From: Hydrurus foetidus
Lineage: Eukaryota
Assembly: GCA_900617105.1 (NCBI GenBank)
Contig: UYFQ01000645.1
Location: 1 to 64,000 of the forward strand
Length of the DNA: 64,000 bases
Reading direction: 5' to 3'
Shown here: piece after piece, positions 6,090 through 42,285 of the stretch
Numbering within the stretch: position 1 is the stretch's first letter
Layout of the letters: each line of letters begins with the position of its first letter
Notes under the pieces: generated by a model
The model's database searches: none
Told to the model about the DNA's origin: nothing
What the model saw: the letters and a program-made list of their open reading frames with translations, nothing else
Made by a program: the position numbers and the translations under genes

Positions 6090-6306
6090 TGTGACCCGCA
6101 CACCCGTACGGGCTGTACGGGTACAGGCGTACGTTCGGACCGGATCGAGGACGATCCGATCCATCCGATTCATTGCCATGATACCTGCTGTGTTTACCTG
6201 TAAGCTAACCACATTGTTTCCATAGCAATAGCTCTCCCAGCTTCTTTTCCCTTGCTCCCGCTCCCAGCCGTCCCGCTCCCAGTGCCCAGATCCTGGCAAG
6301 GCCACA
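6090..6306 (+). repeat. 3' LTR of G1 (217 bp)
   Basis: Follows PPT at 6074-6086; TG...CA with imperfect terminal inverted repeat TGTGACC/GGCCACA; partner LTR not in window. Confidence 0.8.
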
Positions 6307-9300
6307 GTTTGTCATTAATAACAAGTCTCTCAGATGGAGGAAGAAATATTCCTCTGTCTAATTTGAGTATATTGCCGAAAAGCAATTGAGATGCAGAGAT
6401 TTTTAAACGATCACTGTGATTAGAATTTAAAATTCTTTGCACAAATGGTAGTGATGTTGAATAATCATCAAGCGTTACGATATCGTAAGTTAAAGCACGA
6501 AGGTGTCTATTAACTTCTTTATTCATGCGTTCAACAATGGCGTTTTCTTCTTTAGAATATGCTAAAGTAAGACAATGTTGAGTGCCGATAAGAGTTAGAA
6601 ACTCTTTGATTAAATCGGAAATGAAGTGTGGCCCCTTATCAGAACGGAGTTGGAGAGGTGCGCCGAAACGACAGAAATGTTGCAAAAGGCATTGAGCTGT
6701 CGAAAGTGCCGAAGCATCTTTAGTATGAAACAGCTCAACCCACCTTGTGAACGTATCGATAATTACGAGTACGTACCCCCCGTCTGGAAACGGTCCTATG
6801 AAGTCTATGTTAAGGCACTCCATAGGTGTGTAAGTAGAAGTCGAAAAGCCGTGAGCATGAATTGGGATCTTTAACATGCTCATCTTTTGACAACACGAAC
6901 AGTGATCTATGAACCACCTGACATGCTGTCGTTGAAACTGCCACACTTTGTTGTTGTCTTTGAGACGCTTTAAAGTGCGCTCAAGACCAAAGTGACCAAC
7001 TTGTGAATTGTGTACATTACTTATAGTATTGTATTGTTCACGAGTCAGTTTGAACTTTTCAATAATATTGGCAGACATGATTGTCTCAAGTGAATATTCT
7101 TGAGGATGGTCAATCATGTTGTTACGACAGAGTCGAGACATCGAATCAGCTATGTCATTGTTAACACCAGAAATGAATTCAATTTTAAATGAGAATTCTG
7201 ATAAAGCCATAAGCCAACGAACAATCATTGGATTTGAATGATTTTTAATGTATAACAAGTTACGATGATCGGTGCGTAAAGTAAACATCCGATCACGTAA
7301 TAGCGATTTTAAATACGTGCACGCAAAGAAAATAGCATATGCTTCTTTCTGTATAACTGCCCACCTAAGTTGAGCTTTGTTAAGCGATTTACTAACAAAT
7401 GCTACGGGCGTCTCTTTTCCGTCAACTAACTGAAAAGATAAGCACCTACACCGTAATCCGATGCATCAGTGTGCAAGTAAATCGGATCGGTGTCACTTAA
7501 AAAGTGCATTGTCGTGCATTTTGCAGTTTCAGATTTAATTAACTCAAATGCTGAGTCAGCTTCTGGTGTCCAAACTATTTTTTAGATTTATTATAATCAA
7601 CAAGCAACTGGTGTAACGGATATGTACACTTGAAGCATTTTTGATAAAATCGTGAAAATAGTTTACCAAACCTAAAAAACTTTTAAGTTGTTTAGATATA
7701 TCTGGTTTTGGAAAATCTAAAACTTGCCGTATTTTTTCTTGTGACATTTTTAGTCCTTCAGCAGAAAGGACTTTGCCAACATAATCAATTTCGGAATAGC
7801 CAAGATAACATTTATTTGGTTTAAGAAATATTTTATGTTGTCGAAAGCGTTGAAAAACAAGACGGAGTCTAAAAACTAATTCGTCAGTGTCTTTGCCGAA
7901 AACATTGCAATCATCAATGTACATTTCGCATATAGTGTAAATCAATCCAGCTAATACAACAGTTGCCATGGTCTGTTGAAAATAAGAAGGAGCTCGTTTA
8001 GGCCCAAAGGGCAGACGAGTGAATTGATACACGCCACAGAAAAGTATGAATGCAGTGTATGCGCGTGCTGCAAGTGTAAGCGGTGCTTGATGATATCCTT
8101 GAGTGAGATCAAGTGTAGCGAATACTTTAGCTTTATGAGCACCAATTCGACGTAACATTTCATTTATGTTAGGAATGGGCCATGATGCATCTTCGGTACA
8201 ATCATTAAGATTTCGATAATCTATACACATGCGTTTGGTTCCGTCAGATTTTGGAACCATAAGCACTTGGCTGTAATAAGCCGCATTTGATTTCTCGATA
8301 ATCCCTTGCTCTTCAAGTTTCGCGAGTTGACGTATAATGTCAGCTTGATTTGCAGTGGATTGAGGTCGAGGAGGTGTTCTATTACGGGAGACTTTCCATT
8401 TTACGTCATCCACGTTAAGTTCAAACGGTGGGATATCAGCAGGGCTAGCCGGAAGCTCACTGCTAAATATATCCCTAAATTCGTTACATAGTAAACGGAG
8501 TTTATTTTTCTGATCTTCATCACCTGCTATGTGTATTAGCGAGAGTGAATCTGTATCAAGAAATTCATTAATCCATGGTGAAAAGGAGTCATTTAATGAA
8601 TCATCAATTTCATCTTCATCAGGCGGCACAACTCCAAATAGTTGTTCCGACTCTTGAATTAACGAAGCTAGTATGACATGTGTTTGGGTGACTGCCGGAT
8701 CTTTCATTTGGGTTAATGAAAGATCTTTTGGGGTTCCTTTAGAGGTTTGCAAAGTCTCTTCAGGCTGACAGCCACATGTCATGACCACATCTTCAGAAGT
8801 CGAGACTCCCTTTATTGGGGTTGGTCGCGATGAAGTGCTGGATTTTATTTGATCTGGGAAAATCGAGAAGAGATCTAAATCTCGTATAATTTTTCTTCCC
8901 ACTATCAGATCAATTTGTGTTTGTTCTAAAACATAAGCCGTGATTTGGAAAGAAGAATAATTATTTAAATCAGGGCAAAAATAAGAAAGGTTTAAGTCGA
9001 TGGTTTCAGAAATTTCATAGCAATGATTATCTAAACCACTACAAACTTTACACGCTTTCTTAGATGATTTAGAAACATGTTGTGTTAAGTTAAGATTATT
9101 TATAACACGCCTAGCTATGAAATTGCTGGCGATCGATCCCGTATCCAATAGAGTGAAGACTCTATTTTTCTCTTCCAGCGAAGTTTGCTGAGAAATATGA
9201 GAAATAAAGAAAGGGATAAGATGTTTATCCGATGAAACGGAAGGGTTGTCAATTGACGACATATTAAGGTTGTAAACGTAGTCACCTTTTTGTTTCTTCG

Positions 9301-9424
9301 CGACACGAGTAGTGTCTGCTGACGAAGCAGCGGTCTTAGAAGACGCAGAAGAAGAGGAGGAAGCGGAAAAGGAAGATGTTCCGTACGCGTTTGGAATGAA
9401 CGTCGCTTTGGGATCGATCTTCAA
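6307..9424 (-). CDS. pol: G2 Pol (PR-RT-RH-IN), frameshifted and truncated by the G1 insertion
   Basis: ORF 7556..9424 (LLDTG, RMCIDYR, LPFG, YIDD) and ORF 6194..7288 (TDHRNL, HHCC, DFIGP, RSDKG, VERMN); homology stops at RLVINDKL. Confidence 0.92.
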
Positions 9425-9479
9425 AAGATCTTTGCCTCCTTCCGACTGAAGGAAAGGTTTCTCGGTACTGTTAAAGTAC

Positions 9480-10686
9480 GGAGAAGAGCCGAACCGACAA
9501 GTGGCTACTAAGTGGCCAAGTCTCCCACAGCCGGAACAGTGGGGTTTGTCAGATTGCTCAGGCTTCTCGTCCTCTCGTTGCCGTTTTTAATTCGTGGCTC
9601 TTGAGGAGGACGGTTAGAGTTTTTGATCTGGCGAGAATGATCGCCATAAGTCGGGTGAACGTCTACAAACCGTAAAGCATCAATTGCTTCTCGTAGCTTT
9701 CTTAGTTGCGCACGCCACACGAATCGAAAATCATCGACCGTGATAAGACGTGGCGTTCTATCGAGAGTGCGGTACAAAACTGACCTCCAATTAATGGGTT
9801 CAGCTGGCAACTTATCAATAAGAATTTTAGTTGCTGTTAACTGCATGGCAGCTGACACCTCAGGGAATGCATCGACAATATCAGCTAAAAGCTGGTCTGT
9901 CTTTTCTTCCACTGATGGGTTCTTCAGGTCAAATTGAATTTGAACCTGAGTAATGGATTCAATGAATCCTAGTTTATCCGTTCTGGACGTAGCAGTTGCA
10001 GGAATTGCCAAATTCAATTCTCTACAAAAATTCTGATTAGTCCAGTTTCTCCAGTTGTTACAACTGTCTCGACGATCAGGGTCGGTTGCAAATCGAAGTT
10101 GCAAAAGGGTTTTAAAAGATTGGAAGTTGCTGTGATGAACGACATCAACTGGCCGAAACGGCGTTCCATTCGAGAGGAGAACCTCTGAAACTCTTTGAAC
10201 TTCTTGCCAAGACGGCTTGGCGCTCAACTTAGGAGCTTTCTCACCAACTTGCACGTACTGAGTTGGTGGTGCCAAAGCACGTTGATTAGCAGATCTATCG
10301 ACCGAAGTCGACGTGATCTCAGCCGAAGCTGGTGTCGCAGCCGAAGCTGGTATCGCAGCCGAAGCTGGTGAAAGCGATAAAGCAGACAACGCAGAAATGA
10401 CAGGCACATCAATAGCAGACACGACCGCAGGCCCCGACGTCGGCTGAGACGCCGGCGCAGACAGGTCTCCGGCGGGGTCCTGAATCGCAGGTGATCCAGG
10501 AGACTCTATGTCTTGGACATTGCGCTGCGTATGCTTGAGATACGCCTTCCGTGCTGCGACGGCGACAGCGCGCGGCTGAGCTCGTCTTAAGATGGCGCTG
10601 GTGTTGTCGGTGGTGTTGGTGGTTGCCTTAGCGTTGGTGGTTGCCTTAGCCGAGGCTTTGGCACGGATGCGGCGAATTGCCATGAT
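9480..10686 (-). CDS. gag: G2 Gag, with the CCHC knuckle in a shifted frame
   Basis: Part of ORF 9508..11295 from MAIRRIRAK; minus strand near 9495-9545 reads KPHCSGCGRLGHLVATC. Confidence 0.75.
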
Positions 10687-10759
10687 CCGAAAAATTTCCC
10701 GAGAAAAGATGGATGAGTAGAAAGAAATAATTTTGGTCGTAGGAACCAAATATCGATAT

Positions 10760-11044
10760 TGTGGTCGTTGGTGACCTGAAGTGGTCGTTGGTGACCTGAA
10801 GGCGAAGGACGAGGACGATGGACGAGGACGGAGGGCGAAAAACGAAGATGGAGAAGATGGAAGAGTAGTCTTATAGTTTACAGCGAGAAACAAGCAGTAG
10901 TATCTACAGTGATGTGTACTCGCGTGGAAACGAAAAGAAAAGAAAACTGTACCGGACTTTGGGTCCGTTCTAGAATCTACAGTACAGGTATAGTATACAG
11001 TCACAGTGTATCCGTACATGCAGTACAGATGCAGTGAGGCTACA
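10760..11044 (-). repeat. 5' LTR of G2 (about 285 bp)
   Basis: Minus-strand TG...CGACCACA, the same 8-nt end as the G3 LTR; internal 20-bp tandem duplication at 10761-10800; abrupt junction to Copia coding sequence at 11045. Confidence 0.78.
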
Positions 11045-14000
11045 CCCGTATCAGCACCAGCTTCAGCGAGGTCTAGTAGTGCAGCTGCTGCGATACTTGT
11101 TTGGAACGTATCATTATTTAACGAACTTGCTGGTGCTGAACTTGCTGGTGCTGGCACTGTAGCCTGAAACTGGGACTGCAATGTCGACGATGTCGATGTA
11201 GAGGGTACAGCTGGCTCAATCACCCCTTCATTGGACATATAGTTGGAAATATCGGCCAAATGAATTACATCAGCATCGTCGTGTAGAGCCATCATAGTTG
11301 GTAAAGGTGAAAGGATGTCAATATTGCGTGGATCGGTTTCCAGGAGACCGATGTCGGGTCCGCACCGCGGGAGTAGCCTTCGCTGATTGCTTTTGACGTA
11401 ATATAATTGACAATGATATCAGGCATTGGAACTATTTTGAACTGGTCTCTTGTCACGACATGATCGGTTGATAAGCACCACATTTTGACGCTTCCCGTCA
11501 AGTTCCCTGTAGGAAGGAGAGCAACGCAATCCTGCGTGCGAGATGCCATAGAGTTGTCGGTATTTGGAACAGTCGCGTGGAGGTAGTCGCCGAAGTCAAT
11601 TCGTAGGTCCTTAGAAGTATCGAGTTTTTTACCAGTAAATTGCTCTAACGGGCTGATGCGATCGTGAGACGTTCGAGACGGTTGTATGTTCAGGCGAGAG
11701 ACGCAGAACTGGACGCACATGATCAGCAATAGCTTTGTCATGACAAATGGCAGAGAGTTTTCGTACGAGCGTACCCGTTGCTTTATAGTCTGAATTTTTC
11801 GTTCTACAACTGGAACATGCTGGCCTGGTCCTGATGTATCGATGACGATTTTAAAGCTGTTGACATCGCCCCGATTGCTCCCTCTCCTTCGCTTTTTATC
11901 AACACGCAGTCAAACCCTCTACTTGAGGCGGTGGAGAGAAATGATGTAAGCGCAGAGGACATACACTCCACGCCTCTATTCTTCAATTGCACACAGAATG
12001 ATAGCCCCAAGGGAGATAGGACACTGAGAAGGAATTGAAGTTTCTTGACGAAGAAAACATCTACTACCACGACTTGCTCAACTTGCGTCACGCGTGGTGC
12101 GAGAATATTCGGACTCACTGCAGAGACTTGTTTGGCAGTTTTCCCTTTCAAGGATGGGATAGACGGCCCGAATATGGCGTCGGCGTGTATATCCATTTTT
12201 GTCACAGTGCAGTTCAGGATTCCAGAGTCTAACATATCCATAGTCGCTGCTGACGACGCATGAGCTAAGTTGAGCATTAGTTAACGTGCGGCTCGAGCCT
12301 GCAACACTTCTCATGTAATTTCTCATGTTATTGGCAACTGTTGTGATGAGTGCATTTTCTGCTGTCATATCGCATGTATACTGACTCGACAGTTTGCCAC
12401 CCACGTACATATCTATTCTGGAGAATAGATATGTACTACCAAAGACTCCCAGCGTGTAGACATCATCTGGAGAGCTGTACACGACGGTGCATCCTCTGTC
12501 GAGAGCTTCTGCGACTGATATAACGTTAGCGGCCGCATTAGGTTCAAAGGCTACATTCCCGTAATTGTCGAAACACCCCCGATGCTTGACCAACATTCCC
12601 TTCCACGATGAATCGATTCCTCCAATGTAAAATGGAGTTGAGTCTTTGATGCTTGTTAGAATTTGACTGTTTCAAAAGATCGACCGCGAGGCCTGATTGT
12701 CTAGGAGGATGTCGGTGCTCGTGAAAAAAAAACTGCGTCTTCTTTTCCTGATGTGCAAATAAACGCTGCATCGTGCGTGCTCATGTCGTCTTCGTAATCA
12801 GGGTCTTCGGTGGTGACCATAACACCTTGTGTACTGTCAGGGTTGTCGGGACAATTCGCCCAAAGGTGTCCCTTTGTTAGGTAGCCTCGGTAGGTTCTAT
12901 TCTCGATGACAGGTGGTTGCTGTTAAGGTGGCGGTGCCTTTTGGTTTTGTTGAGGTGGCTATCCCTTCTGGTTCCATCGTTCGCCTGGCCCTCTTTGTCC
13001 CCCGCCATCTCTACCACGCCCACCCCGTCCTCTACCACGGTCAGGCTTTTTGCAGTCATCGTCAGCCAGAGTGAATACGGAGTACATTTCGCCTCCTGGC
13101 AGTTGCTTGGATACAGCAGCCTTCCAACTAGAGGCAATCGTCCATGCGGCATGGAGCGTTTGCGGGAATGGAATTCCAATAGTCGCGTTGTTGGTTAGAT
13201 GGGCCATCATCGATGCGTATCGGGTAGGGTCCAGTCTTGTCAAGAATAGAATAGCCAGTTCCGGTTGTGGAGGCGGGTCCCGTGATCACACTGATCTGAT
13301 CATCGAATACCTTCTTAATCTTTCCTGTCCTCACGTTGGGCTTTTGTCTGATGGCGTTGAATTTCGTCTTGAGTGTAACGATTTCAAGCTTTCACGTCTC
13401 TCGTCCAGCACCATGAATCGCTGTCGTGTGGGTTTCCACAATAATTGTCCATAAGGTGTTAGGATTTTGGGCCAGGTCCGCCTCTTCGTAATTTTCTTCT
13501 CTCGATTCCAGCGACAGTGTTTCCCAAAGTGTTACAGCTTGGGTGCATCATCCTTTAGCTTTGAGATCGCCTTATTTCTCAGTTTTTCTGCATCGAGTCT
13601 GAGTGCAGCTATCGCTGCCGCTCCAAGTGCCGGCAATTATTCGTCGCCTTCGTCTGCGGCGAATGGCATATAGTCTGCTGGTTGGACTGGATCGGGTACG
13701 TAAGGCTCATTGGTTTTTAGTACGTTGGCCAGGAATCCGAATTCTTTGCAGCATACGTTCAGTCTTTCTGTCTTCCATGCCATAAAATTGTTTAATCTTC
13801 CGAATAGTAGCATGGTTGGACCGTCCTTGGCAACCGACTTCAGGCTTGCCATTTCATCTTCTTCTTCTTTAATTTTGCGTTGTACACACAATCCTTTGTT
13901 GTAGTCCCTCTCGCGGATGCGTTCTAATTATGTTGGAAATAAGAAATTTAGCCGCGCGAATCTCCGATATCAAGGTGTGATAATCGTGAGTGAAATTCCG

Positions 14001-14223
14001 CGCTACAATCTCACCAAGGCTCGTAACACGAAGCAACTTCGGAATTAAGGTTACTTGTTATTTAGAACTGAGGTAACAGCAGTATGTAGCTAGTCATGTT
14101 AATGTCGACTCCGATTGGAGTTCAGTCTCCACTCGTCAAATATCTTATACCGTTTTACTCTCGTTACCCTCAGATGGTTATCGGTTTCATCCACTTAGAA
14201 TCTCATAATTCATAATTCCAACA
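11045..14223 (-). mobile_element. Degenerate Ty1/Copia retrotransposon C1 (5' LTR, gag, PR, IN; interrupted by G2)
   Basis: Fragments: gag (MASLKSVAK..., RLDPTRYASM, RGG repeats), LLDNQA protease, integrase (DVFFVKK, SEGEGA, FGDY, PTGNLTGS); Copia domain order; many frameshifts. Confidence 0.85.
13931..14223 (-). repeat. 5' LTR of C1 (293 bp)
   Basis: Perfect 8-bp terminal inverted repeats TGTTGGAA/TTCCAACA, about 80 nt upstream of the gag start. Confidence 0.8.
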
Positions 14224-14284
14224 TGACATCGTAGAGTACCGTACGTACTCCAGTGTAATGTACGCACGCACAGAGGGTAACCAC

Positions 14285-14898
14285 TGTCCAGGATTCAAGG
14301 TTTAAACTTGCATGGTTGTATGTATTACAATAATTTCGCTCTGACAACATCGACACCAGACCAATGCGCGCCACGCCTGTCGGGTAGAGGACCTGTGGCC
14401 CGGATTCCTGACGATACAGATGCCTTTTTACTCTGCCGAACGTACACAAAAAGGACTCGAGTTCGAACTCGTGACAGCGTGACGATATTTTGATTTATCC
14501 AACAGACGTATACTTTTGAATCCTGTTTTGAATGAATGATGCGTACGACTCATGAAGTAAATGATATGAACTTCAAAACTGGTACCTAGATAGATAAAAG
14601 ATGACATGTATGGTTGTAGTCTCCTGTTCGACGATCAACGCATACTTCTTTATCTCGTAATTAAGAAGCCACACTAAGTGCAACCACCCAACCTTCAGCA
14701 AAGGAAGATCTTCTGTCGACAGGAAAGCGCGCCTGAAGCCACAAGAACTTTCCTGCTAAAGGTACCAGCTTATATTACAGAAGGATAAAGGATAGAAGAC
14801 GACTTATTCTGAATTTGGTCCAACCTTCCCAGTTTCACCGTATCAGTGAAACGGTTGTAACCAACGAACAAGTCCACGGATTTGGAAAATCCCAATCA
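14285..14898 (+). repeat. 5' LTR of C2
   Basis: TG...CA direct repeat of 20078-20691. Confidence 0.93.
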
Positions 14899-14978
14899 TA
14901 AAGAAGTAACTTACTTAAGCGAAGACATCGCTTAGCACAAAGCCCAGAGAGCATCTGGCCAGAGAGGATCTGAAGAAA

Positions 14979-17900
14979 ATGTCCGGACGCGGACTTGAAC
15001 ACGATCAGAGAAATCGTCTACGGCGAGGAGGCAGAGGCCACGGCAGAGGACCACCTCAAATCGCCCGCGAGGCTCCAAAGCCGGAGCCGAAATTTAAGGG
15101 AAGTAATCCGGAACTTCCTTCCCTAAATTATGGTGCCTCACCAAAGGAGAATAGGCCCATCGAATTTTTGCAGCTCTTCGGTGAGCACTGCGCAATAAAC
15201 TACAAGTCTTGCATTGCGCAAGCTTTTTGGACGTCACCTCCGGCATACGGAGATGTGGAAGAAGAGCCAACCATGCCCGAAACAATCCCAAGCACAAACG
15301 TCGGAAAAGCAATATTGGCTGAATTTACAAATGACAGAAAGGAATGGAAACTAGAATCGAAGAAAATCGCTGAGCATAAAAGATCTGTATTCGCCCTCGT
15401 CTACGCCCAACTGAGCGAGTCGTCAAGGACGGAGGTTAAAGACGATGAGGACTGGGAGCAGAGCTTCATTGACCGTGACCTACTATACCTCATTCAAAGA
15501 ATTAAGGCGACTCACATTGCGCGTCAAAGCGGTAACCCCGGCCAAGACATGGAGAGAGTACGGACCGCTTGGGCACTTATGAGAATGACCCCGTACGAAA
15601 CAAGCTTCACTTTCAGGAAAAGAGTCGAGGACTACCAACTTGAAAGAACATCGGTCGGCCTACCAATAATCCCCGATGATGAGCTTGCCATCGGGATCCT
15701 AAACCGATTGGACATGTCTCGCTACTCATCACTGGCCAGAGATTACTTAGACAATGAGCGCAGAGGCATTTTCCGAGCTACCCGAACTTCCTTCTACATT
15801 GTGGAAAGAGATTAAGGATACCCAAATCGTACGTTTCAGGGGTATCCAGAACGCTCAACTTCACGGAGTGTATTTGTCCAGAGCTGATGATGTAGCAGAA
15901 AAAGGACCAGCTCGTGGTAAAGGTCGTTGTGAACATGGTGGTCGCGGCGGTAGAGGTGGAGGACGAGGTGGAAGAGGCGGTGGAAGAGGTCGCGGAAAAG
16001 ATTTTCCTTACCGCCCTGCGACAACACCTTCTGCACCTATCAAGCCAGCTGATATCATTTGTTGGACATGCGGCTTGAAAGGTCATAGGTCCACAAACTG
16101 CCCCAATAAACCACTTAAGTCCTCAGAATCTCTAGCTGAGAGCAATATTTTCCTGACCACGGTGACCAATTTCACTCCAAACGCTGAAGGCGATTACGAT
16201 TATGATGCATCTCATCCAGATGCCTCAGACACCCAACTGTTCTTGACATCTCGATCCCCGCAAACTAAACACTCCATACTTTTGGACACTCAATCCGCCA
16301 TACACCTTGTGTCCGACCGCGACTTGCTCATTGGAATTAACTCAACCTATCTCAGCACAAGGCATCACTGGTGATAAAATCACAGTTGTCTTTGAAGGAT
16401 TGATCAACAAGTTAGGCATTAAGGCCTATCATAGCACCAAGGTCGCCGCAATTCATTTTGAGCTACCACAAGCTCCAGGAGTCTCACTCCGTCACATACT
16501 GCGAGCACGATGATACCTTCGTAGCCATTCCGTTTCTAATTGGACCACACCTTAATTTTACTTGTGTCAATGGCCACTATACACTCGACATGAGTACAGT
16601 AGTTCAAGTGTATATGACAGCTCGAATCTCAAAGCCATGAAATACACCAAACGCCAGTTGCAGACGCCAGCGCAGCCTACGATTTCATAGTTCGAATGGG
16701 ATTCATTAGCTACAAAGCAGCTGCAGAAGTTGTCCAACGAGGCAGCATTACCAACCTTGGTTTCACAAGAGCAGACCTTGTCAACGCTCAAGATATCTAC
16801 GGCACCCCTGCCGCATACCAACTTGGCCAAGGTACAAACAAAACACTCAATCAATCTCAGGAGACCTTATTCCATTCATGAGTCAGTCAATCAAGAGCTC
16901 CAAGTCGACTGTTTTACTTCCTTGGGAATGTTTTCTTCCTGAGTATTTCTGTGCTGATTGGACTAATCATGATCACACATCTTGGTTCCGGCATCGAACG
17001 TAACAAAGACAAAGCTGCTACTGACAAAGGTGATGGATTTCGTTCCAAAGCAGGACAAGCTTTACTCCAACACATTCAGCAATACCAAAATAAGGGCTTC
17101 TCCATCACACGTGTCACCACAGATGGTGAGTCATCCATCACAGCTACTCGACCACACATTGAAGCCCTTGGAGTAGACCTCAATGTTCTAGGTCATGGAT
17201 CGCATACCCCACATGCTGAGTCGGCAATAAGGCATGTGAAGAACAAAGCACGTTCTACTATGCATAGCTTGCCCTACATCCTTCCAGGAAAGCTAGCAGT
17301 TGCTCTTATCGGTTTTGTCGTTCACACGATCAATATGGTCCCTAAAATCAATTCCCCTGGTCATCTCACTGCTCATACAGCGTTCCTAGGCCGTATACCC
17401 AATTTCAACCGAGATGCTCCCTACTCCTTCGGTACTACAGGATTCCTTCAACGTGCGCATCATCCTCAGTATAACGCAGTATCTCCACGTGCTGACTATT
17501 GTATTTGGATTGGGACCACGCACAATCTCGCTGGAACACACCGATGCTTTAACCTAGATACTTTACGCGAAGTCAGAGGGGATGTCTTTCGTCCAACACA
17601 CATCACCCCTGCTGCTATCGCACGCCTGACTACTCTCGCGGGAGCTGGACCACCATCACAAGATAACACACACTCGCATCCTCAAGAGCCTCTACTTGAA
17701 AATCCAAATGCATCTTATCCACTGCCTCCAGATCGAGGGGTAGACTCCGACGTTCCTGAAGTCAGTGATGACATATCAGCCGATATTATCATGGCAAACG
17801 AACTGGACTCAGAGGACAATATGCTAACACTACCACTTGAGACTCCTACTACTGTCGACCACACAGTAGAGGGTTCTCAGCCAACACTCGACATACCCGC

Positions 17901-19640
17901 ACTATCAACAACTGTCGAGGTTAACGCATCCGAAGATGAAGAGCAATATTTTCCACTCCAAGAAGTAGCTCGTTCACAGGCCGCCGAATTAGTTAACATT
18001 CGAAACTCCAACCGATATGAGTTGCGTCCTTCAACACAAATCAAACATGTGTACTCAACACTATCCATCAAAGCTGCAAGAAAATTATATGGAGAAGAGT
18101 TGTCAGACAAAGCTACTAGAGATGAGCTCATGACTTGCATCCAGAAAGATGTGTGGGAATGTCTTGACCCAACTTACGTTACAAAGAACGCCATCCCTTC
18201 AAAAATGTTCCTCACGCCCAAGTCGCTCCCTAGTGGCAAGTTGGATAGAGTTAAAGGCAGGATAGTGGTGGGTGGACACAGACAAGACAAATCACTGTAC
18301 GAAGACAAAGAAATCTCATCTCCTACAGTCGCAATGACCTCAGTCCTAATCACAGCCGCACTTGCAGCCAAAGAAGGCAGACATGTGATGACACTTGATC
18401 ACAAAGCCGCATATTTGAATGCGGGTATGAAGGGACCACCAGTGGAAATGCTGATATCCCCTGAAGTCGCTGAGATCCTCTGTGACATCGACCCAAAGTA
18501 CCGAACTTTCTGAAGAGCAGACAAGAAAATTGCAGTCAGACTCAAGAAAGCGTTGTATGGATGTGTCCAAAGTGCCATGCTGTGGTACGAAGAACTTACA
18601 TCAACGCTCGAGCAGATGGGATTCATTCGGAATCCATATGACGCATGCTCGTTCTTAAGACTCCATGATGGATCACATGATCGCATCCTCGTCTACGTCG
18701 ACGACTTGTTCATCACTTCGGCTTCAGAAGAGAGACTCCAGGAAATAGCAGAAAAGTTGCAGTCCAAATACGACTCCGTCACGTACAAGACCGGAAAGCA
18801 GCACGATTTCCTCGGCATCCATTGGGATTTCTCTATCCCTGGCCAAAGCAATCTGTCAATGGATGGATATATTCAAGATATTATCACCAAGTACAATGTA
18901 ACAAAGCAGTGCAGAACACCAGCAACAGACAGACTATTTCACACAACGGCAGACAGCCCACTCCTCACCTCCTGACAAGAAAGAATTGTTCCGCTCATGC
19001 GTGATGACACTGTATTATCTCGCCAAGCGATCAAACCAGAGATCTGACCACGATTTCCTATTGTGCAACAAGGATATTAGGACCGACTGAGGAAGACGAA
19101 TCAAAACTTGACAGATTATTGTCCGACCTTCTGTTCTCTAAAGATCACAAAATGATCCTCCGAATCGGATCTGATGTCACCCTCAACTCTTTCGTTGATC
19201 TCTCCTTTGGCCTCTATGAAGACGGAAAGTCTATCACGGGAATTGCTATCAGACTCGGCGACGCTACCATCTACGTGAAATCTGGGAAGCAGAAAATTGT
19301 CACAAGATCATCAACTGAAGCAGAGTTAGTTGGAATATCTGATGCTCTATCTCAAGTATTGTGGACACGCGAGTACCTTATTTCTGCGGGAATCAACATC
19401 GGTCCCGCGATCATGTATCAAGATAATCAATCGACCATCTTTCTCGCCACCAAAGGCCGCTCTACAAGTGAAAGAAGTCGACACATTAAAATAAGATATT
19501 TTTTCGTGGCACATTACATTGAGACCAATGAGATCAGATTGGAATACCTACCTACTGGACAAATGGTCGCGGACATCCTGACTAAGCCGCTCCATGGCAC
19601 GCTTTTCAACAACTTCGCCAAGAGATTGACAGGCAATTGA
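14979..19640 (+). CDS. gag-pol: C2 Gag-Pol polyprotein, broken by multiple frameshifts
   Basis: CWTCGLKGHRSTNC knuckle; LLDTQS protease; TTDGE/AESAIR integrase; KGRIVVGGHRQ, DHKAAYLN, LYG, YVDD RT; SSTEAE, DNQS, ADILTKPL RNase H. Confidence 0.9.
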
Positions 19641-20077
19641 CCTCAACGAAGGACACGACAACTCTTACTGCAACATGGAGGTCTAATCATTTCAACTACC
19701 GGATGGGGACTCACTCAGATTCCTCTAGACAGTCAGAACACCCACGCGGAGGAAGGGAGGTGTATCACCGGTGCCGCGTGTTAGACCCATTTAGAATAAG
19801 AGCACTGCGGAGAACATTTGCAGAAGTTAGATTGGAGTGTCAATGACAATCGTGCTGGATCAGAGTTGTCGTGTCGTATCGCGTTGGCCAAGTCTGTCAC
19901 TCGTGTACTACTACTCTATCGTATCGGATTAATATATGTACTGTTTTCAACGAGACAGCTTTGAAAGAACCGGATTATCGAATAGCGCAGCGGCGCAAAT
20001 TTTTTTAAGCTACAAACGGCCAAAGCCACGAATTTGTTTTACTGAATCTTCAGAGAGTACGTCCGCATCAGGGGGTA

Positions 20078-20691
20078 TGTTCAGGATTCAAGGTATAAAC
20101 CAGCATGGTTGTATGTATTAGAGTAAATTCACTAAGATGCTACAAATTCAAAGAACCGCGTGCCACGCCTGCTGGTCTGGGGGGCTGCGGTCCAAAGGCT
20201 TTCTGAGACGGACCCCCGTTTTCCCTGCCGAATGTACGCAGAAAGGAGTCGAGTTCGAACTCGTGACAGTGTGACGACTTTTTGATTTATCCAACAGACG
20301 TTATACTTTTGAATCCTGTTTTGAATGAATGATGCGTACGACTCATGAAGCAAATGATATGAACTTCAAAACTGGTACCTAGATAGATAAAAGATGACAT
20401 GTATGGTTGTAGTCTCCTGTTCGACGATCAACGCATACTTCTTTATCTCGTAATTAAGAAGCCACACTAAGTGCAACCACCCAACCTTCAGCAAAGGAAG
20501 ATCTTCTGTCGACAGGAAAGCGCGCCTGAAGCCACAAGAACTTTCCTGCTAAAGGTACCAGCTTATATTACAGAAGGATAAAGGATAGAAGACGACTTAT
20601 TCTGAATTTGGTCCAACCTTCCCAGTTTCACCGTATCAGTGAAACGGTTGTAACCAACGAACAAGTCCACGGATTTGGAAAATCCCAATCA
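20078..20691 (+). repeat. 3' LTR of C2
   Basis: Preceded by AGGGGGTA, followed by TSD ACCAC. Confidence 0.93.
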
Positions 20692-20948
20692 ACCACCTCC
20701 ACTTGTTGGGAGGATGCCAGATGGTGGGACGCCCGCCATCAATGCAATCCAAATAATTTCAATTTTTGACCGACAAGAACTGGCGAATGTCATAATCGAC
20801 TAACTGTGAGGATCCATACGTATGAATAACCGAAAAGTTTAATGGAAACAATGTGCAGCGCGATGGTCAAAATCAAACTGCAAATCGGAGGGCGCATTTT
20901 GTGTTCTTTTTGAAGTAACCCACTTCGAGATCAGTCATTGTCAAAGTG

Positions 20949-30100: not shown

Positions 30101-33100
30101 TCAGACGCATTTAAAGTCAAGGGCATTGATATATAATATGTACATGTCTAAGTAGTGGTCTAGATGTTTTTATGCATACGTGTACTTTATTTGACTCCAT
30201 TTTTTTAATCCGTAAATGATAATATTTGCGTTAAGATATCAATGCATAAAATAAATGTATTCTTCCATATTTTTTTGTGCTATTTCATTTCAACGTGTAA
30301 ATGGTGTTTTTCACAGTCATGAGCCATCATAAAAAATCATTGTGGGCGTTTTATTTTATTTTTAATCTCGTACCCTATTTTTCATTTCCAGTGCTGCCCC
30401 AGCTTTTATCAGAATTTCCACTGCATTTAATTTGTTTTCAAAAGATGCGAGTAGCAGTGCTGTCGCTCCCTCCTATGATTGAAAATATCAACGAGTTCCA
30501 GTAAAATTTGAGAAAGATGAGATTATTTATTAGATATGTTAGTCTCCCTTTAGTTAATTAGTCAGTCAGTCAGTCAGTCAGTCAGTCAGTCAGTCAGTCA
30601 GTGTATCAGTCAGTTAGTCAGTGCATCAGTCAGTGTGTCAGTCGATCTGTCAGTCAGTCAGTGCACCAGTCAGTGAGTCAGTTGATCTGTCAGTCAGTGC
30701 ATCAGTCAGTTAGTCAGTCAGTCAGTCAGTGAATGAGTCAGTCAGTGCATCAGTCAGTTAGTCAGTCAGTCAGTCAGTCAGTGAATGAGTCAGTCAGTGA
30801 GTCAGTCAGTCAGTGAGTTAGTCAGTCAGTCAGTGCATCAGTCAGTTAGTCAGTCAGTCGGTTAGTCAGTCAGTCGGTTAGTGAGTTAGTCAGTCGGTTA
30901 GTCAGTCAGTGCATCAGTCAGTGTGTCAGTCAGTGAGTTAGTCAGTCGGTCAGTCAGTCAGTGTATCAGTCAGTATATTAGTCAGTCAGTCAGTCAGTCA
31001 GTCAGTCAGTCGATCTGTCAGTCAGTGCATCAGTCAGTGTGTCAGTCGATCTGTCAGTCAGTGCATCAGTCAGTTAGTCAGTCAGTCGATCTGTCAGTCA
31101 GTGCATCAGTCAGTGTGTCAGTCGATCTGTCAGTCAGTGCATCAGTCAGTTAGTCAGTCAGTCACTTAATGTATCAGAAATCACTATATGCCCTCCCTCC
31201 CTCCCTCCTTCACTTACCTTGTCTTGTGCATCCACTTTGGCGCCAGCTGAAATCAGTAAATCCATCACACCTTCATATCCGTTAGCAGCTGATAACATCA
31301 ATGACGTTATTCCCTCCTACAGGGAAGAGGAAAGACAATAAGAGGAGGATAGAAGAGAAAAAGAGAGATGACGAGAGGAGAAGAAGAGAGAAGAAGAGAA
31401 GTGCAGTGTCATATAATGCAATTAAATATAATATAACATCGTATTATATCATGTAATTTCAATCTTATTTCTTCAGGACATTTTGATGCTCATAAAGTGT
31501 AGTTTACTATGACTTGCTGAAATGCTGAATGAAAGGACGTGGTATCGCAACATAATGTCATAAGAAAGAAATCAAAAAAATTCATCTGTTGGCAAAACAC
31601 TAGGATGATCGTTAAACAAAACGAATCTTATCGACAATCGCACACGTCCTTTCCTCCTTTCATCTGCCTGTTTGTGCGTCCTCTCTTTCTTTAGTATGTT
31701 TGTACACGTATTTTTCCACGCACACACGTACAGTGCAGCACTGTGCAAAACAGTACAGTACAGTATAGTGTAGTATAGTACAGTACAATGCAGTACAGTA
31801 CAGTATAATGCAGTACAGTACAGAGCAGAGCAGTGCAGTACAGTACAGAACGTACTTTATCGACAACGTCTACATTGGCTCCTCCTTTCAAGAGGGAGGC
31901 AACAATATCTTCATGCCCTCCTCCCGCAGCTCCAATCAGAGCAGTGAAACCGTTCTGGAGAGTAGAGAATAACGGAATAAAATGAGATCGGATCAGCGCT
32001 GTGAAGGCATCCCGATGAAGTGGGTAAATTGCGTCATCACAATCACGCAAAATAGAGTGACTCACTGCATAATTATACCGGAACAGAATAATCCATTAAA
32101 AATTAGCCGGATTATGCAGTGAACTACGGAGACTACTCAGACAGAATAATTACTACTATGTATCAAAATAAAATTAAATGGAATAGTTGAGATAAGATCA
32201 ATGCTGTAAAATTGTTCTGGTGACGAGAGAAATGATGTTGAGTAACATCTTATAAAATTGATCTGTCGTGTTAAAATGGCGTATGTGATTCAAATTTATG
32301 ACAGGCAATGTGATGTGATATTTTAGGACTCTTTTTTATCGCATCGTTTTATGTCATTCAGTTTCTTATATCATAAATGTTAAATATTGGTATAGGAGGA
32401 GATGTAACGAAGGTCGATGAAATGAGATAAAAAGAAACGAAATAGGATTATATTAATCAGTATTAAACACGATAAGATAAGATTAGACGAAATAGGATTA
32501 GATAAAATAAGAGGAGATGTAACTAAGTGATATGAAATAATACGAAATGAAATGAGATAAGAAAATTTAATATTTATGAGATAAAAAATTAAATGACGTA
32601 AAAAAATTACGATAACTTTTTTTCGTCACATCACATCATAAAATGGAATCACATACGTCATTTCATCATACATAGGTCATCTCATACGTAAGAAATAATT
32701 TTTAAACACATCATTTTATCAAGCGAAAATGCTCCACAAACATCGCTGCATCGAATCAAGGCTCCTCATCTATTGCAGATCCATTTAATCTGAACCTATC
32801 CCCTATACACGACAATCCACACATTATTTGTACCTTACAATTTGTGTGTGTGGACTGTCGTTTATAGGGGTGGGTTCAGATTAAACGGATCTGCAAAGAC
32901 GAAGAGCCTTGAAATCGAGTTGCATATACCATTGAATTAAATGGAAATGATCAACACACAACATTGCATCATGGTCACTTACTCTGCATAGGTCATCATA
33001 TCACATGATGTCTCCACACACATCATCACATCACATCACATCCATATAATCTTCACACATCCTTGCACCATACGTCATTACATACGTACTTCTTTCTCAG

Positions 33101-35300: not shown

Positions 35301-35808
35301 TGTCAGTCCAGCATATTCATGCTTGATCTGTTAGCATAGTTTCATCTGTAGATTAGCATTCACATGTCACAAGTAGTGTAGCGCTTCCTCACCCAAAACA
35401 CCTCCATACACTGTTGTGTACATACGCTAATCGTTCTTCTAGCGATATCCCCCTTCGGGGCCATCACCAAGCATCCGGTTTTTCACCACCAAGCATCCGG
35501 ATTTCCACCAGGTATCCGGTTTCCACCAAGCATCCGATTTCATGAGCAGCGAGGGTTCCGCCCATTGCTCAATCGCCAACTTGAATATTCGCTGAATATG
35601 TTTCCACTTCGGCGATCACCATTTCATGCACAATGGATGCTTTGCTTTGCTTCTTTGATGGTTGTCTTCTCTGATATCATCGCCAGTTGTTTTACTACTT
35701 GATCGTTGTAAGTAAACACGTCTTCCGAGACCACTTCCATCAGCCAGTCTTTCCTTTGCGCTTCCGCAGCCAACAGGTAGCTCGCTTCACTCCACAGTCT
35801 GACTCACA
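35301..35808 (+). repeat. 5' LTR of C3 (contains about 4 tandem CACCAAGCATCCGG-like units)
   Basis: Direct repeat of 41778-42285. Confidence 0.95.
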
Positions 35809-35819
35809 TGGTAGCGATT
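35809..35819 (+). promoter_or_regulatory. Canonical tRNA primer-binding site of C3 (probably initiator Met)
   Basis: TGG complements tRNA CCA; TGGTA implies A73/U72 as in eukaryotic initiator tRNA; tRNA identity is inference. Confidence 0.65.
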
Positions 35820-35898
35820 GCATAGAAAGTTCAGCAATCATCGATATAGTATCAATATATCAACGGTATCTCATCACAACAGATATCTCAAGTCGGCC

Positions 35899-37677
35899 AT
35901 GATGCTACGATCGTCCGACAACACAGACCAAAACAACGAGGAATACCATGACCCAACTGGGCTAGAGACTCCCAGCCGCGCCCAGCTGCCGCGCATGCTC
36001 TCCATGACCCTCGCAGAGTTCGATCAACGTGTCGCCGAGGCCATAAGAGCCCAAACTCAAAATTTGGTCACCAGCTCGACGGCAAATCGGCAAAATCCTT
36101 CCACACCAAACCGACCTCGACGAGGCTCCCATGCAGAGGAAGCCACGCCACCGCGCCAAACTTTGGCAGAAGTTTCAGCACATGGGCTATCATATAATGC
36201 CGCGTTGGAATCCGTTTTGGAGCTCAAACGGCTAAAACTCGATCTCGTTCTGACGACCTCTTCCGAAATGGATAGCATCAAGCAAAACCAGATCACCACA
36301 ACGACTGTGGGATCTAACAAGCGCTTCAAAGCTCTCGACAACATGCTCCACGTCGTTGGACTCTACCCAATGGCGATGGGCACGCGTCGCGAGCCAATCC
36401 CAACGAGGCACAACCCATCAGGATACTCGGAGCCTACAACGTCGGAGAATCTTGATGGAACATTCAACTATGTCCCTGCCGACGATGTTACACGATGGGC
36501 CCACGACAAGAAACGTTTATACAACGTCATGTTGAACGCTTTCAGCGAGTCTACCCATTATCTATGTGCCGATGCCTTTACCTCTCGCGATGGGATCGCT
36601 ATATATAAACGTATGCACAAGCACTACTACGGACATACTGAAGCAGACATCAACCGACTTCGGCGGCTTCTACAAAACTTCAAGGGCTCTACGGCTACTT
36701 GTTTTCAAGAGGATTTAGTGAGGTTTACAACGTTGATGACAGAATTCGAGTATGCCCAGGCCAGACCGAGCACCGAGCAGGAGCGCCTTCAATTCCTTCA
36801 CAACGCCTTCATGAACGACCACCGCCCCAACACAAAATCCTACTTTATGTCCTGCCATAGCAACATGCTCACCTATCACCAAACTTTGGAGAGAGCTGTT
36901 GTCTATTCCGAGTATGCCCTCCTCCAAGACAAGCCGGTCAAGATAGCTGCCTTGTCCACTACCCCTGAAGCCTGCCGCAAGTTCCTCGCTGGTACCTGCC
37001 TTCTCGGTAACAAGTGCAAGTACTATCATGCTCCTGCTAAGCCACCGGCAGCGACACCTCCCTCTGGCAAAGCACATCCTCCTGCCCCACCTGGATCCGC
37101 TCCAGTCACGGACAAGAACCGGATCAAAGCCAAGGGCAAGTACCCTCCCAAGCAGACCTTCCCAGTGACGAGTATCGATGGCCGCGTCCCTTACCTCAAG
37201 AGCAACATCCCCATGAAGCTTCTTACCAACGGACCCAACATCAACCCTGAGGACGGATGGCAGAACAACACGCTTTTGGATAACGCCGAACCCTCCGGGT
37301 ATGTGCGCTTCTCCCTCAACATGTTCCGAGTCACCGACACTGACCCAGCACCTCCTCCGGATACACCGTCTAATCCTCCTCTCGAGTTAGCACTTCCGCC
37401 AGGACTCCCTCCATCAGGACACTCACCACTGCGATCTCCAACTCGTCCATCTTCTAATGCCGCCTCTCCCATAATGCTCCGACCGTACGTACGTTCCGAA
37501 CATACTCAACCAGCATCTACCCCAGTAGTCCTGGGTACCCCCGACTCCTGTCGCCCCAGAGAATGCTACAGCATGGGACACGCCGCGCCATCAGAACATC
37601 TCTTCGCCAACATATGGGACCCCAATGCAAGAAGAAGTCGATGCCTTCACACGTACCTGGGCCTTCCTCACCAATGA
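35899..37677 (+). CDS. gag: C3 Gag-like protein with a CCCH zinc finger and Pro-rich tail
   Basis: Position after the PBS; Copia-gag-like SRDGIAIYKRM...; CRKFLAGTCLLGNKCKYYH = CX7CX5CX3H. Confidence 0.75.
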   Translation: MMLRSSDNTDQNNEEYHDPTGLETPSRAQLPRMLSMTLAEFDQRVAEAIRAQTQNLVTSSTANRQNPSTPNRPRRGSHAEEATPPRQTLAEVSAHGLSYNAALESVLELKRLKLDLVLTTSSEMDSIKQNQITTTTVGSNKRFKALDNMLHVVGLYPMAMGTRREPIPTRHNPSGYSEPTTSENLDGTFNYVPADDVTRWAHDKKRLYNVMLNAFSESTHYLCADAFTSRDGIAIYKRMHKHYYGHTEADINRLRRLLQNFKGSTATCFQEDLVRFTTLMTEFEYAQARPSTEQERLQFLHNAFMNDHRPNTKSYFMSCHSNMLTYHQTLERAVVYSEYALLQDKPVKIAALSTTPEACRKFLAGTCLLGNKCKYYHAPAKPPAATPPSGKAHPPAPPGSAPVTDKNRIKAKGKYPPKQTFPVTSIDGRVPYLKSNIPMKLLTNGPNINPEDGWQNNTLLDNAEPSGYVRFSLNMFRVTDTDPAPPPDTPSNPPLELALPPGLPPSGHSPLRSPTRPSSNAASPIMLRPYVRSEHTQPASTPVVLGTPDSCRPRECYSMGHAAPSEHLFANIWDPNARRSRCLHTYLGLPHQ

Positions 37678-39001
37678 CGAAGTCACCTCCTCCACTGTCT
37701 TCCAGGGTATCTGCCGACAATGCTCCACGTACATCCTTCAGTACTACACTGTGGTCCACCACCGCATTCATCAGCAGCCCCTCTCAGCAAATGACTTCAT
37801 CATCTATGTGAACCGTCCCGCCTTGCCTGGATCCCCTACACCGGCGCCTCATATATACCTCGCTATTTTCGGCTGGGTATCCCCAACCACCCTCAGCAAC
37901 TGCCGCGCTGATGTCAGAGACGGATACTCTCGGTATATGAACCTCATCCACAAGATTGCTCGCAACCTGCTGCTCGCCAACACTGAGCCGCCGACTCCAC
38001 CCAATCTTGAGTATGACCCAGGGCACTACCGCACCTTCAATCCAACCTTGATTGAAGACATCACCACCTATCAGTCCACAGTCGGGAACATTTTCTTTTA
38101 CTTCCTCGTCCACACTGCTCTGTACCTCGACGACCAGATCAGTCCAGACCACATGGCCATATTTGAAAGTGTCCTCATCTACGACTGTGCCTCCTGGGTC
38201 GCAGCACAGCTTGCCCGATATGCCAATGCACCCGGCAACTCCTGGCACAACATTCCCACCCTTCGCCTCCTCATGCTCACGGAAGTTGATGCACACGTTG
38301 ACGGTCTTATGACACGAACTGGATCGAACGAGTCATTCATCCAAGCTATTCGAGTCGTAATCCAGCATGTCCTACCCGACGCATTTCATGTTACACCCAA
38401 CAGCCTCTTCGTCGGACCCGATCCTGTTGAGCCCACCGAGTCACACTACCGCACAGTATCTCTCGCCAGGGACCTCGCAGCATCTACTGCCCCACAGAAC
38501 ATACGTAAACGATACACTTTGCGGAACTATGAGAGTGATTCAGAGTCCTCTGTCGAAGACTCCATCTGTTTCCTCCCGTACAACATGTCCTGTCCAACCC
38601 ATAACATCAGTGGCCCTCGCTGCGCCCTCTCTTATGTTAACTACCTCCATGGCGCCGTCACACATCTCATCGTCCCTCCATCAGACGCATCCCCATGGGT
38701 ACCACCGGACGCATCGATGGAACTTCAGCGGTACAACGCCAGGAAGCGCGGCATCGCATTCCAACAAGACCAGGCTCAAGGGGACACTAAGCGTCAAGAC
38801 ACCACCTCATCCTCGTCCGCATCCTCTTCCGCATCACCGTCACCGTCGATTCCCACTACGCTTCCGGAGTTCAATACTCCTCTACCACCTGTCCCATCGA
38901 CACCCTCTGACCCTCTTACCGGGTCACTCAAGCCGCGCAACCACTTGCATCCGACTCGCCTTTCACTATGCCTATACCCACTCGACTCCATCATTCCGTA
39001 A
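37625..39001 (+). CDS. Uncharacterised 458-aa ORF between gag and pol of C3
   Basis: Long open frame overlapping both neighbours; no protease or integrase HHCC motif recognised. Confidence 0.5.
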   Translation: MQEEVDAFTRTWAFLTNDEVTSSTVFQGICRQCSTYILQYYTVVHHRIHQQPLSANDFIIYVNRPALPGSPTPAPHIYLAIFGWVSPTTLSNCRADVRDGYSRYMNLIHKIARNLLLANTEPPTPPNLEYDPGHYRTFNPTLIEDITTYQSTVGNIFFYFLVHTALYLDDQISPDHMAIFESVLIYDCASWVAAQLARYANAPGNSWHNIPTLRLLMLTEVDAHVDGLMTRTGSNESFIQAIRVVIQHVLPDAFHVTPNSLFVGPDPVEPTESHYRTVSLARDLAASTAPQNIRKRYTLRNYESDSESSVEDSICFLPYNMSCPTHNISGPRCALSYVNYLHGAVTHLIVPPSDASPWVPPDASMELQRYNARKRGIAFQQDQAQGDTKRQDTTSSSSASSSASPSPSIPTTLPEFNTPLPPVPSTPSDPLTGSLKPRNHLHPTRLSLCLYPLDSIIP

Positions 39002-41570: not shown

Positions 41571-41777
41571 CATAAATACTTAATATCCATATTTCTAACA
41601 TACGTACTAATTTTACTATCTTATATGAGTGCACGCATATATTATAACTAACTTTTTACACTTTTTGCCAAATCTCCCGTACGGGGAGTACATCCTCAGT
41701 ACGGGGAGTATATATACACATATCATTCATTTCGATACTCTCAATAACACGTTCAGCTACATCTTCACTACGGGGAG

Positions 41778-42285
41778 TGTCAGTCCAGCATATTCATGCA
41801 TGATCTGTTAGCATAGTTTCATCTGTAGATTAGCATTCACATGTCACAAGTAGTGTAGCGCTTCCTCACCCAAAACACCGCCATACACTGTTGTGTACAT
41901 ACGCTCATCGTTCTTCTAGCGATATCCCCTTTCGGGGCCATCACCAAGCATCCGGTTTTTCACCACCAAGCATCCGGATTTCCACCAGGTATCCGGTTTC
42001 CACCAAGCATCCGATTTCATGAGCAGCGAGGGTTCCGCCCATTGCTCAATCGCCAACTTGAATATTCGCTGAATATGTTTCCACTTCGGCGATCACCATT
42101 TCATGCACAATGGATGCTTTGCTTTGCTTCTTTGATGGTTGTCTTCTCTGATATCATCGCCAGTTGTTTTACTACTTGATCGTTGTAAGTAAACACGTCT
42201 TCCGAGACCACTTCCATCAGCCAGTCTTTCCTTTGCGCTTCCGCAGCCAACAGGTAGCTCGCTTCACTCCACAGTCTGACTCACA
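41778..42285 (+). repeat. 3' LTR of C3
   Basis: Direct repeat of 35301-35808, followed by CCCCC. Confidence 0.95.

What the first reader, a model, noticed from the sequence alone, without database searches (positions are those of the whole stretch)
14642..14908. Copia element C2 has self-priming geometry instead of a tRNA PBS
Seen: the 5' LTR ends ...AATCA at 14898 and is followed by TAAAGAAGTA (14899-14908), not TGG. Its exact reverse complement TACTTCTTTA lies inside the same LTR at 14643-14652, directly after CA in an initiator-like context (GCATACTT). The duplex extends to 11 bp with the LTR-terminal A, and its 3' end sits flush with the LTR end, so extension would give a minus strand starting TG. 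The uniform-composition expectation for a given 10-mer in 614 nt is about 6e-4, somewhat higher for AT-rich words. Known: S. pombe Tf1 (Ty3/Gypsy) primes with the first 11 nt of its own mRNA after RNase H-dependent cleavage, while Ty1/Copia elements are described as tRNA or half-tRNA primed. Inference: this Copia lineage primes without tRNA; I know of no such report but could not search.
Basis: partly seen in the sequence, partly recalled or inferred. Interest (0 to 1): 0.9.

Follow-up and report, generated by a model that had tools for sequence, protein, structure and literature searches.

The report
Self-priming Copia retrotransposon lineage in algae
A broken Copia-type jumping gene has no tRNA-type primer site; the ten bases there pair with a stretch of its own terminal repeat, and many distant relatives keep such pairing with different letters, so this group likely starts copying its RNA with its own predicted front end, a trick shown in fission-yeast Tf1 and already predicted for one plant Copia group.

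Summary
Observation confirmed. Element C2 (14285-20691; 614-nt LTRs, ACCAC target duplication) has TAAAGAAGTA directly after the 5' LTR. Its exact complement lies at 14643-14652, after CA (16 of 20000 shuffles give the match; 1 also has CA). A neighbouring Copia of the same broad lineage (minus strand, LTR 13931-14223) shows the same geometry at 9 of 10 bases. Among 56 distant relatives (34-44% RT identity), 32 have a perfect match of 10 nt or more to their own LTR, against 41 of 3056 swapped pairs. Their primer sites differ widely, none has TGG, and sister elements show compensatory changes. Self-priming is the likely mechanism, but the transcription start, the cut and the primer were not observed. 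The novelty claim needs correcting: self-priming is already predicted for the plant Copia lineage TAR (89% of 203 elements; PMC6317226). Not found in my searches is this divergent, probably ochrophyte-algal lineage, with 10-17-nt primers and no Tf1-like three-duplex fold predicted in C2. Its independence from TAR is inferred, not tested. The scan found the same pattern before on other DNA (32 notes, at least 6 genomes, diatom-type Copia).

The parts
14280..14284 (.). Target-site duplication ACCAC, left copy
14285..14898 (+). 5' LTR of C2 (614 nt, TG...CA). About the first 225 nt are about 76% like the 3' LTR; the last 389 nt differ at one base
14642..14642 (+). Predicted transcription start (A of CA); unpaired, faces A14909
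   Evidence: Inferred from relatives: the match begins at the A of CA in 19 of 33 and one base after it in 8 of 33, including C2. Not measured.
14643..14653 (+). Predicted self-primer region TACTTCTTTA(T), the exact complement of 14898-14908
   Evidence: identical in a contig of run X3 covering 14636-14738
14899..14908 (+). Primer-binding site TAAAGAAGTA, flush with the LTR end, no TGG
   Evidence: unchanged in X3 contig 14869-15163, whose five differences all lie elsewhere
14915..14935 (+). Predicted local hairpin just downstream of the PBS, in place of a Tf1-like long-range duplex
   Evidence: pair probabilities 0.87-1.0 for 14916-14922/14928-14934
14979..19640 (+). Gag-protease-integrase-RT-RNase H coding region in Copia order. 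Broken: frame change near 15770, several breaks in 16350-16660, a stop at 18511-18513, frame change near 18950-19040
   Evidence: intact relatives have one ORF of about 1540 aa
20070..20077 (+). Polypurine tract (AGGGGG) plus TA before the 3' LTR
20078..20691 (+). 3' LTR (614 nt), carrying the same primer site at 20436-20446
20692..20696 (.). Target-site duplication ACCAC, right copy
13931..14223 (-). 5' LTR (293 nt, TGTTGGAA...TTCCAACA) of a second, truncated Copia (C1) of the same broad lineage
13921..13930 (-). C1 primer-binding site TAATTAGAAC
14059..14068 (-). C1 partner site, 9 of 10 complementary, preceded by TCA
   Evidence: 76 of 5000 shuffles give such a site, 4 also with CA

Best explanation
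C2 is a broken copy of a Copia LTR retrotransposon whose primer-binding site pairs with its own LTR rather than with a tRNA end, and its lineage likely primes reverse transcription with the predicted 5' end of its own RNA. Shown: the geometry in C2 and in its neighbour C1, and its conservation with changing letters across a broad, probably ochrophyte-algal lineage. Inferred steps: (1) transcription starts at the A of a (T)CA motif, 14642 in C2; (2) the first ~11 nt fold onto the PBS 246 nt downstream; (3) a cut, most likely by the element's RNase H as in Tf1, frees a 3' OH after A14652 or U14653; (4) RT extends it into U5, so the minus strand begins at the LTR end; (5) plus-strand synthesis copies the primer into the new PBS. 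Step 5 would explain the near-absence of G-U pairs, the match ending at the predicted start, and the two sites changing together.
For: C2 match is beyond chance. C1 repeats it in the same genome, while the TGG-type Copia at 35301 and the chromovirus at 44293 have no site within 2 mismatches. With no CA rule, the longest inverted match is 11 nt or more in 29 of 53 relatives against a shuffle mean of 2.0; 25 of 29 are flush with CA and 25 of 29 start at CA upstream, about 20% each in shuffles. Swap test: 10 nt or more in 32 of 56 self against 41 of 3056 non-self pairs; 13 nt or more in 20 of 56 against 0 of 3056. 27 different PBS 8-mers among 33, none with TGG. Sister elements change both sites together: L003/L008 at 4 of 10 positions, L023/L039 at 4 of 12, L029/L037/L040 at 2 of 7, L058/L061 at 1. 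With G-U allowed, 4 of 465 pairs in 35 helices are G-U. A half-tRNA anticodon-loop pattern fits 9 of 33 (6.3 expected) and not C2. Both sites are intact in contigs of a second study's run, X3.
Against: No start site, cut or primer was observed. No DNA from C2's own subclade (about 48 proteins at 52-90% RT identity) was obtained, so covariation comes from relatives at 34-44%. 24 of 56 relatives do not reach 10 nt. Some are explained (Gag start mis-picked in L023 and L034, an internal G-U in L080, a non-CA end in L050, 7-bp duplexes in three sisters), but L017, L020, L022, L031, L042, L053 and L072 are not. Only 2 of 6 loci tried (L014, L023) gave an LTR end defined by a repeat end with a match there; elsewhere LTR ends were inferred from CA/CG. 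The predicted fold is fragile: pairing is 0.82-0.93 for 14642-14982 but 0.03 or less when the RNA runs to 15035-15215, where 14646-14654 pairs with 14784-14792 instead. Host tRNAs could not be compared because no genome is held.
Confidence: 0.8

Rival explanations
1. The pairing is a conserved regulatory or packaging structure of the leader (for example closing the 5' UTR, controlling translation or aiding strand transfer), and priming happens by another route.
For: The helix would close the whole leader, often within 20-40 nt of the Gag start. No RNA data show priming. Fungal GalEa Copia elements lack a PBS and carry a hairpin instead (PMC5445492, passages).
Against: One arm is flush with the LTR end and the other starts at CA. 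G-U pairs are almost absent, which fits copying better than selection on a fold. No other PBS candidate (TGG) was found.
Confidence: 0.1
2. A host tRNA fragment or other small RNA primes, and the LTR match is secondary or chance.
For: Half-tRNA priming is common in Copia (Osser, Bryco, Bianca; FunCo1). Several relatives have AT-rich PBSs starting (C/T)AATTA. Host tRNAs were not available.
Against: 27 different 8-mers among 33, and up to 4 changes between sisters. The anticodon-loop pattern is not enriched and C2 fails it (the pattern is recalled general tRNA knowledge). A tRNA primer would not explain self-specific LTR matches.
Confidence: 0.06
3. For C2 itself the match is a coincidence in AT-rich DNA, picked out of many scanned elements.
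For: The match is only 10-11 nt, and 4 of 300 shuffles of the LTR plus leader give an inverted match of 11 nt or more somewhere in the searched zone. No DNA from C2's own subclade was tested.
Against: At the fixed position the chance is about 1e-3, and 5e-5 with CA. C1 and 32 of 56 relatives show the same geometry.
Confidence: 0.04

Closest known systems
Tf1/Tf2 of Schizosaccharomyces pombe and the Tf1/sushi group (Ty3/Gypsy chromoviruses)
   Same: The PBS next to the 5' LTR is complementary to a stretch inside the LTR. The predicted primer in C2 is 11 nt, as in Tf1, where the first 11 bases pair and RNase H cuts between bases 11 and 12 (PMC7175516, passages).
   Different: C2 has Copia domain order and an RVT_2-type RT. 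Primer length is 10-17 nt across relatives, most often 15. Tf1 needs a three-duplex 'pretzel' (bioRxiv 10.1101/2022.12.06.519325, passages); C2's predicted fold has a local hairpin after the PBS instead. Tf1 is shown by experiment; this is not.
TAR lineage of plant Ty1/copia (includes Houba and Osr-1)
   Same: A Copia lineage predicted to self-prime by the same criterion, 10 bp or more of LTR complementary to the region 0-5 bp after the LTR (PMC6317226, passages and supplement 5: 89% of 203).
   Different: TAR is described from plants. Named members of this lineage's clusters come from Synura and Sphacelaria. Seven intact relatives score only 78-104 bits on RVT_2 and have no rve or gag_pre-integrs hit, which suggests distance from mainstream plant Copia. 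No TAR sequence was available to place in the tree.
CoDi Copia elements of diatoms (PMC2806351)
   Same: Divergent Copia lineages of ochrophyte algae, 5-8 kb long, some families lacking TG/CA ends; a few relatives here end in CG.
   Different: The main text has no mention of tRNA or a primer site; its supplement could not be read. No CoDi sequence was available, so membership was not tested.
Fungal GalEa Copia with a Conserved Hairpin Site (PMC5445492)
   Same: A Copia group without a tRNA PBS.
   Different: Its partner sequence lies 12-41 bp downstream, and the authors found no complement in the LTR. Here the partner is inside the LTR.

Membership tests
Ty1/Copia LTR retrotransposon | Two LTRs with TG...CA ends, target duplication and PPT | tested here: met
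Ty1/Copia LTR retrotransposon | Integrase before an RVT_2-type RT and RNase H | tested here: met
   RVT_2 hits; order read from the translation and from tblastn to intact relatives. The integrase has no Pfam rve hit.
Self-priming LTR retrotransposons (Tf1-type mechanism) | PBS complementary to a stretch of the 5' LTR and flush with the LTR end | tested here: met
Self-priming LTR retrotransposons (Tf1-type mechanism) | No tRNA-type PBS | tested here: inconclusive
   No TGG and no half-tRNA pattern, but host tRNAs were unavailable
Self-priming LTR retrotransposons (Tf1-type mechanism) | The partner stretch is the 5' end of the transcript | tested here: inconclusive
   No RNA read lay on the LTR; support is indirect, from the CA start motif
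Self-priming LTR retrotransposons (Tf1-type mechanism) | RNase H-dependent cut releases the primer | not testable with these tools
   The RNase H reading frame keeps its acidic D/E/D/D motif residues by eye; activity untested
Tf1/sushi group | Ty3/Gypsy chromovirus phylogeny and domain order | tested here: not met
   Copia order, RVT_2
Tf1/sushi group | Three-duplex pretzel around the PBS | tested here: not met
   Prediction only, on C2 alone: a local hairpin follows the PBS and no flanking long-range duplex exceeds 0.4 beyond the primer helix
TAR lineage (plant Copia) | RT-RH-INT phylogeny within TAR | not testable with these tools
   No TAR sequence was obtainable (the paper's FASTA supplement is too large to read); Pfam scores and algal relatives point away from TAR
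CoDi-I/CoDi-II diatom Copia | RT phylogeny with CoDi references | not testable with these tools
   No named CoDi sequence among the hits

The most novel reading that the evidence does not exclude
A large, ancient Copia lineage of ochrophyte algae primes reverse transcription without tRNA, independently of both Tf1/sushi and plant TAR. It uses a freely drifting 10-17-nt self-primer that is recopied into the PBS each cycle and needs no pretzel fold. That would be a third origin of self-priming, or a survival of the self-primed state proposed for the earliest LTR elements.
Probability: 0.55. Interest if true: 0.7.

Novelty: new variant of a known kind. Interest (0 to 1): 0.5.

Why it matters
Self-priming is shown experimentally for the Gypsy element Tf1 and predicted for one plant Copia lineage. 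A separate, widespread algal Copia lineage using it would show that the switch away from tRNA is repeatable and does not depend on a Gypsy RT, or that self-priming is old in Copia. PMC3601003 (passage) suggests a self-priming precursor and late tRNA priming, and this lineage would make that idea testable. In practice, LTR finders that require a tRNA PBS would miss or down-rank these elements. The match also predicts each family's transcription start to the base.

Tried and rejected
No whole genome is held, so there was no census of sister copies and no host tRNA comparison; ARAGORN found no tRNA in the window. No RNA holder was listed. The two RNA runs with the same species label gave 2 and 4 reads in gag at 90-95% likeness and none on the LTR, about 6% of each run read, so there is no information on the start site. 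Variants at the two sites across further runs were not obtained. Three scans of viral contigs and a Gag-based metagenome scan found no relative, so C2's own subclade has no DNA here. The control with other dinucleotides was discarded, because starts inside the true helix inflate it; replace it. One search misplaced C1's LTR end by one base; one search corrects it. RNA folding was not used as support because the result depends on the chosen ends. The fold test on relatives (30 of 32) is circular, since the folds were started at the matched site. The host gene search named no organism, and the Atlas gave no taxa. The tree (FastTree) has an unresolved backbone: it shows C2's subclade inside the same radiation but does not name its sister.

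Full report
Observation. The element spans 14285-20691, with two 614-nt LTRs, ACCAC on both flanks and a purine tract before the 3' LTR. The ten bases after the 5' LTR (14899-14908) are the exact reverse complement of 14643-14652, and the match extends to 11 nt with the terminal A. There is no TGG at offsets 0-5. The fixed 10-mer complement appears in 19 of 20000 dinucleotide shuffles of the LTR; in a second run, 16 of 20000, with 1 also preceded by CA. Logan contigs start at 14285 and, in two runs, at 14869, where a 31-mer graph would branch if the LTR ends at 14898. In run X3, one contig covers the primer site with no change, and another covers the PBS with all five of its changes elsewhere.

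The element. It has Copia order with an RVT_2-type RT. It is broken by frame changes near 15770, 16350-16660 and 18950-19040 and by a stop at 18511-18513; some of these may be assembly errors. About 48 metagenomic proteins at 52-90% RT identity form its subclade, many of them single ORFs of about 1540 aa. More distant clusters (about 40%) include members from Synura sphagnicola and Sphacelaria rigidula. An ochrophyte host is therefore likely but not shown; no genome is held and a host gene named no organism.

A second case in the window. Directly upstream on the minus strand lies a truncated Copia (C1) whose integrase is about 45% identical to distant members of the same lineage. Its LTR is 13931-14223 and its PBS is TAATTAGAAC. 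A 9-of-10 complement lies at 14059-14068 after TCA; 76 of 5000 shuffles give such a site and 4 also have CA. The TGG-type Copia at 35301 and the chromovirus at 44293 have no site within two mismatches.

Relatives. I used the 53 of 79 that held sequence upstream of a Gag start and added 5 of the 12; L081 was a near-duplicate and the rest lacked that region. Two identical duplicates were dropped, leaving 56. With no rule about LTR ends, the longest inverted match was 11 nt or more in 29 of 53 (shuffle mean 2.0). Of these, 25 were flush with CA and 25 began at a CA upstream, against about 20% each in shuffles. In a swap test using real LTR sequence as the null, 10 nt or more occurred in 32 of 56 self pairs and 41 of 3056 non-self pairs; 13 nt or more occurred in 20 of 56 and 0 of 3056. 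Among the 33 positives, C2 included, there were 27 different PBS 8-mers, mean pairwise identity 42%, and no TGG. The match began at the A of CA in 19, one base after it in 8 (as in C2), one base before it in 2, and had no CA nearby in 4. Primer lengths from that A were 10-17 nt, most often 15. Sister elements in the tree changed both sites together: L003/L008 at 4 of 10 positions, L023/L039 at 4 of 12, L029/L037/L040 at 2 of 7, and L058/L061 at 1 (anchors hand-picked from earlier output). With G-U allowed, 4 of 465 pairs in 35 helices were G-U (helices were chosen for 10 or more Watson-Crick pairs, which favours this result).

Against. 24 of 56 relatives fell below 10 nt, and about seven of them are unexplained. 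LTR ends in collapsed contigs were mostly inferred from CA/CG; only L014 (9 nt) and L023 (12 nt) of six loci tried gave a repeat-defined end with a match. No DNA from C2's subclade was found. The predicted duplex forms for 14642-14982 (0.82-0.93) but is lost for most longer RNAs, where a competing helix with 14784-14792 wins. The start site, the cut and the primer were not observed.

Mechanism. The most likely course is: transcription from A14642, folding of the first 11 nt onto the PBS, a cut probably by RNase H, extension into U5, and copying of the primer into the new PBS during plus-strand synthesis. All of these steps are inferred. The last one would account for strict Watson-Crick pairing, the match ending at the predicted start, and fast joint drift. 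A half-tRNA primer is unlikely: a recalled anticodon-loop pattern fits 9 of 33 against 6.3 expected, and does not fit C2. Host tRNAs could not be checked.

Known systems. Tf1 pairs its first 11 bases with the PBS and cuts with RNase H (PMC7175516, passages), within a three-duplex structure (bioRxiv 10.1101/2022.12.06.519325, passages). C2 likely works like Tf1 but is not a member of that group. PMC6317226 (passages; supplement 5) predicts self-priming for TAR Copia, 89% of 203 elements, and cites a proposal for Houba and Osr-1, whose source I did not read. Whether this lineage is independent of TAR could not be tested directly; low RVT_2 scores (78-104 bits), the lack of usual Copia Pfam domains and algal relatives suggest it is. 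PMC2806351 on diatom CoDi elements has no mention of priming in its main text; its unread supplement lists structural features and could bear on this. PMC5445492 (passages) describes a different PBS-less Copia. Nine literature searches listed no report of self-priming Copia in algae; I saw most hits only as listings, and subscription journals are largely outside the library.

Earlier scan notes. 32 notes in at least 6 genomes describe the same geometry in diatom-type Copia. They are unchecked AI notes and were not counted as support; no sequence look-alike to this element was found among them.

Verdict. The feature is real, probably functional, and shared by a broad lineage. It is a new variant of a known mechanism rather than a first for Copia. 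Interest 0.5.

Noticed in passing
window 14285-14509 vs 20078-20301: The two LTRs are about 76% alike over the first ~225 nt but differ at 1 of the last 389 nt, although the target duplication is intact. This suggests a chimera of two U3 variants (template switch or gene conversion); run X1 holds a contig identical to the 5' variant and a contig with the 3' variant's extra T.
   Followed up: partly
window 14260-14279: The 20 nt before the left target duplication resemble the 21 nt before the 3' LTR, including the purine tract (5 of 127960 window positions score as high, counting these sites themselves). Unexplained.
   Followed up: partly
window 44293-51105, post-LTR 44501-44512: A chromodomain Gypsy element has neither TGG nor an LTR complement after its 5' LTR. 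It has a 12-nt palindrome that includes the LTR's last A (AATAGATCTATT), like the palindromic site described for fungal GalEa; its priming is unknown.
   Followed up: partly
window 35301-42285: A second full Copia, very distant from C2, with a tRNA-type site (TGGTAGCGA) and a 4-copy repeat in its LTR, so both priming types sit in one window.
   Followed up: partly
window 11352-14223 (minus strand): Copia C1 stops within its integrase at about 11350, next to a minus-strand Gypsy region (6194-11418); no RT or second LTR was found in the window.
   Followed up: partly
L050 (non-coding region): A distant relative has the same 10 letters (ATAAAGAAGT) at its junction and a matching LTR site, although its LTR seems not to end in CA; probably convergence in AT-rich sequence.
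   Followed up: no
L001, L041, L049, L078: The apparent LTR ends in CG instead of CA, with 10-15-nt self-matches.
   Followed up: no
L080-L091: Contigs in prokaryotic genome bins carry these eukaryotic Copia elements, most likely as binning contamination.
   Followed up: no
window 30462-31500: Long array of 8- and 12-nt units.
   Followed up: no
window 55467-57081: PIF/Harbinger-type DDE transposase pieces (Plant_tran, DDE_Tnp_4).
   Followed up: no
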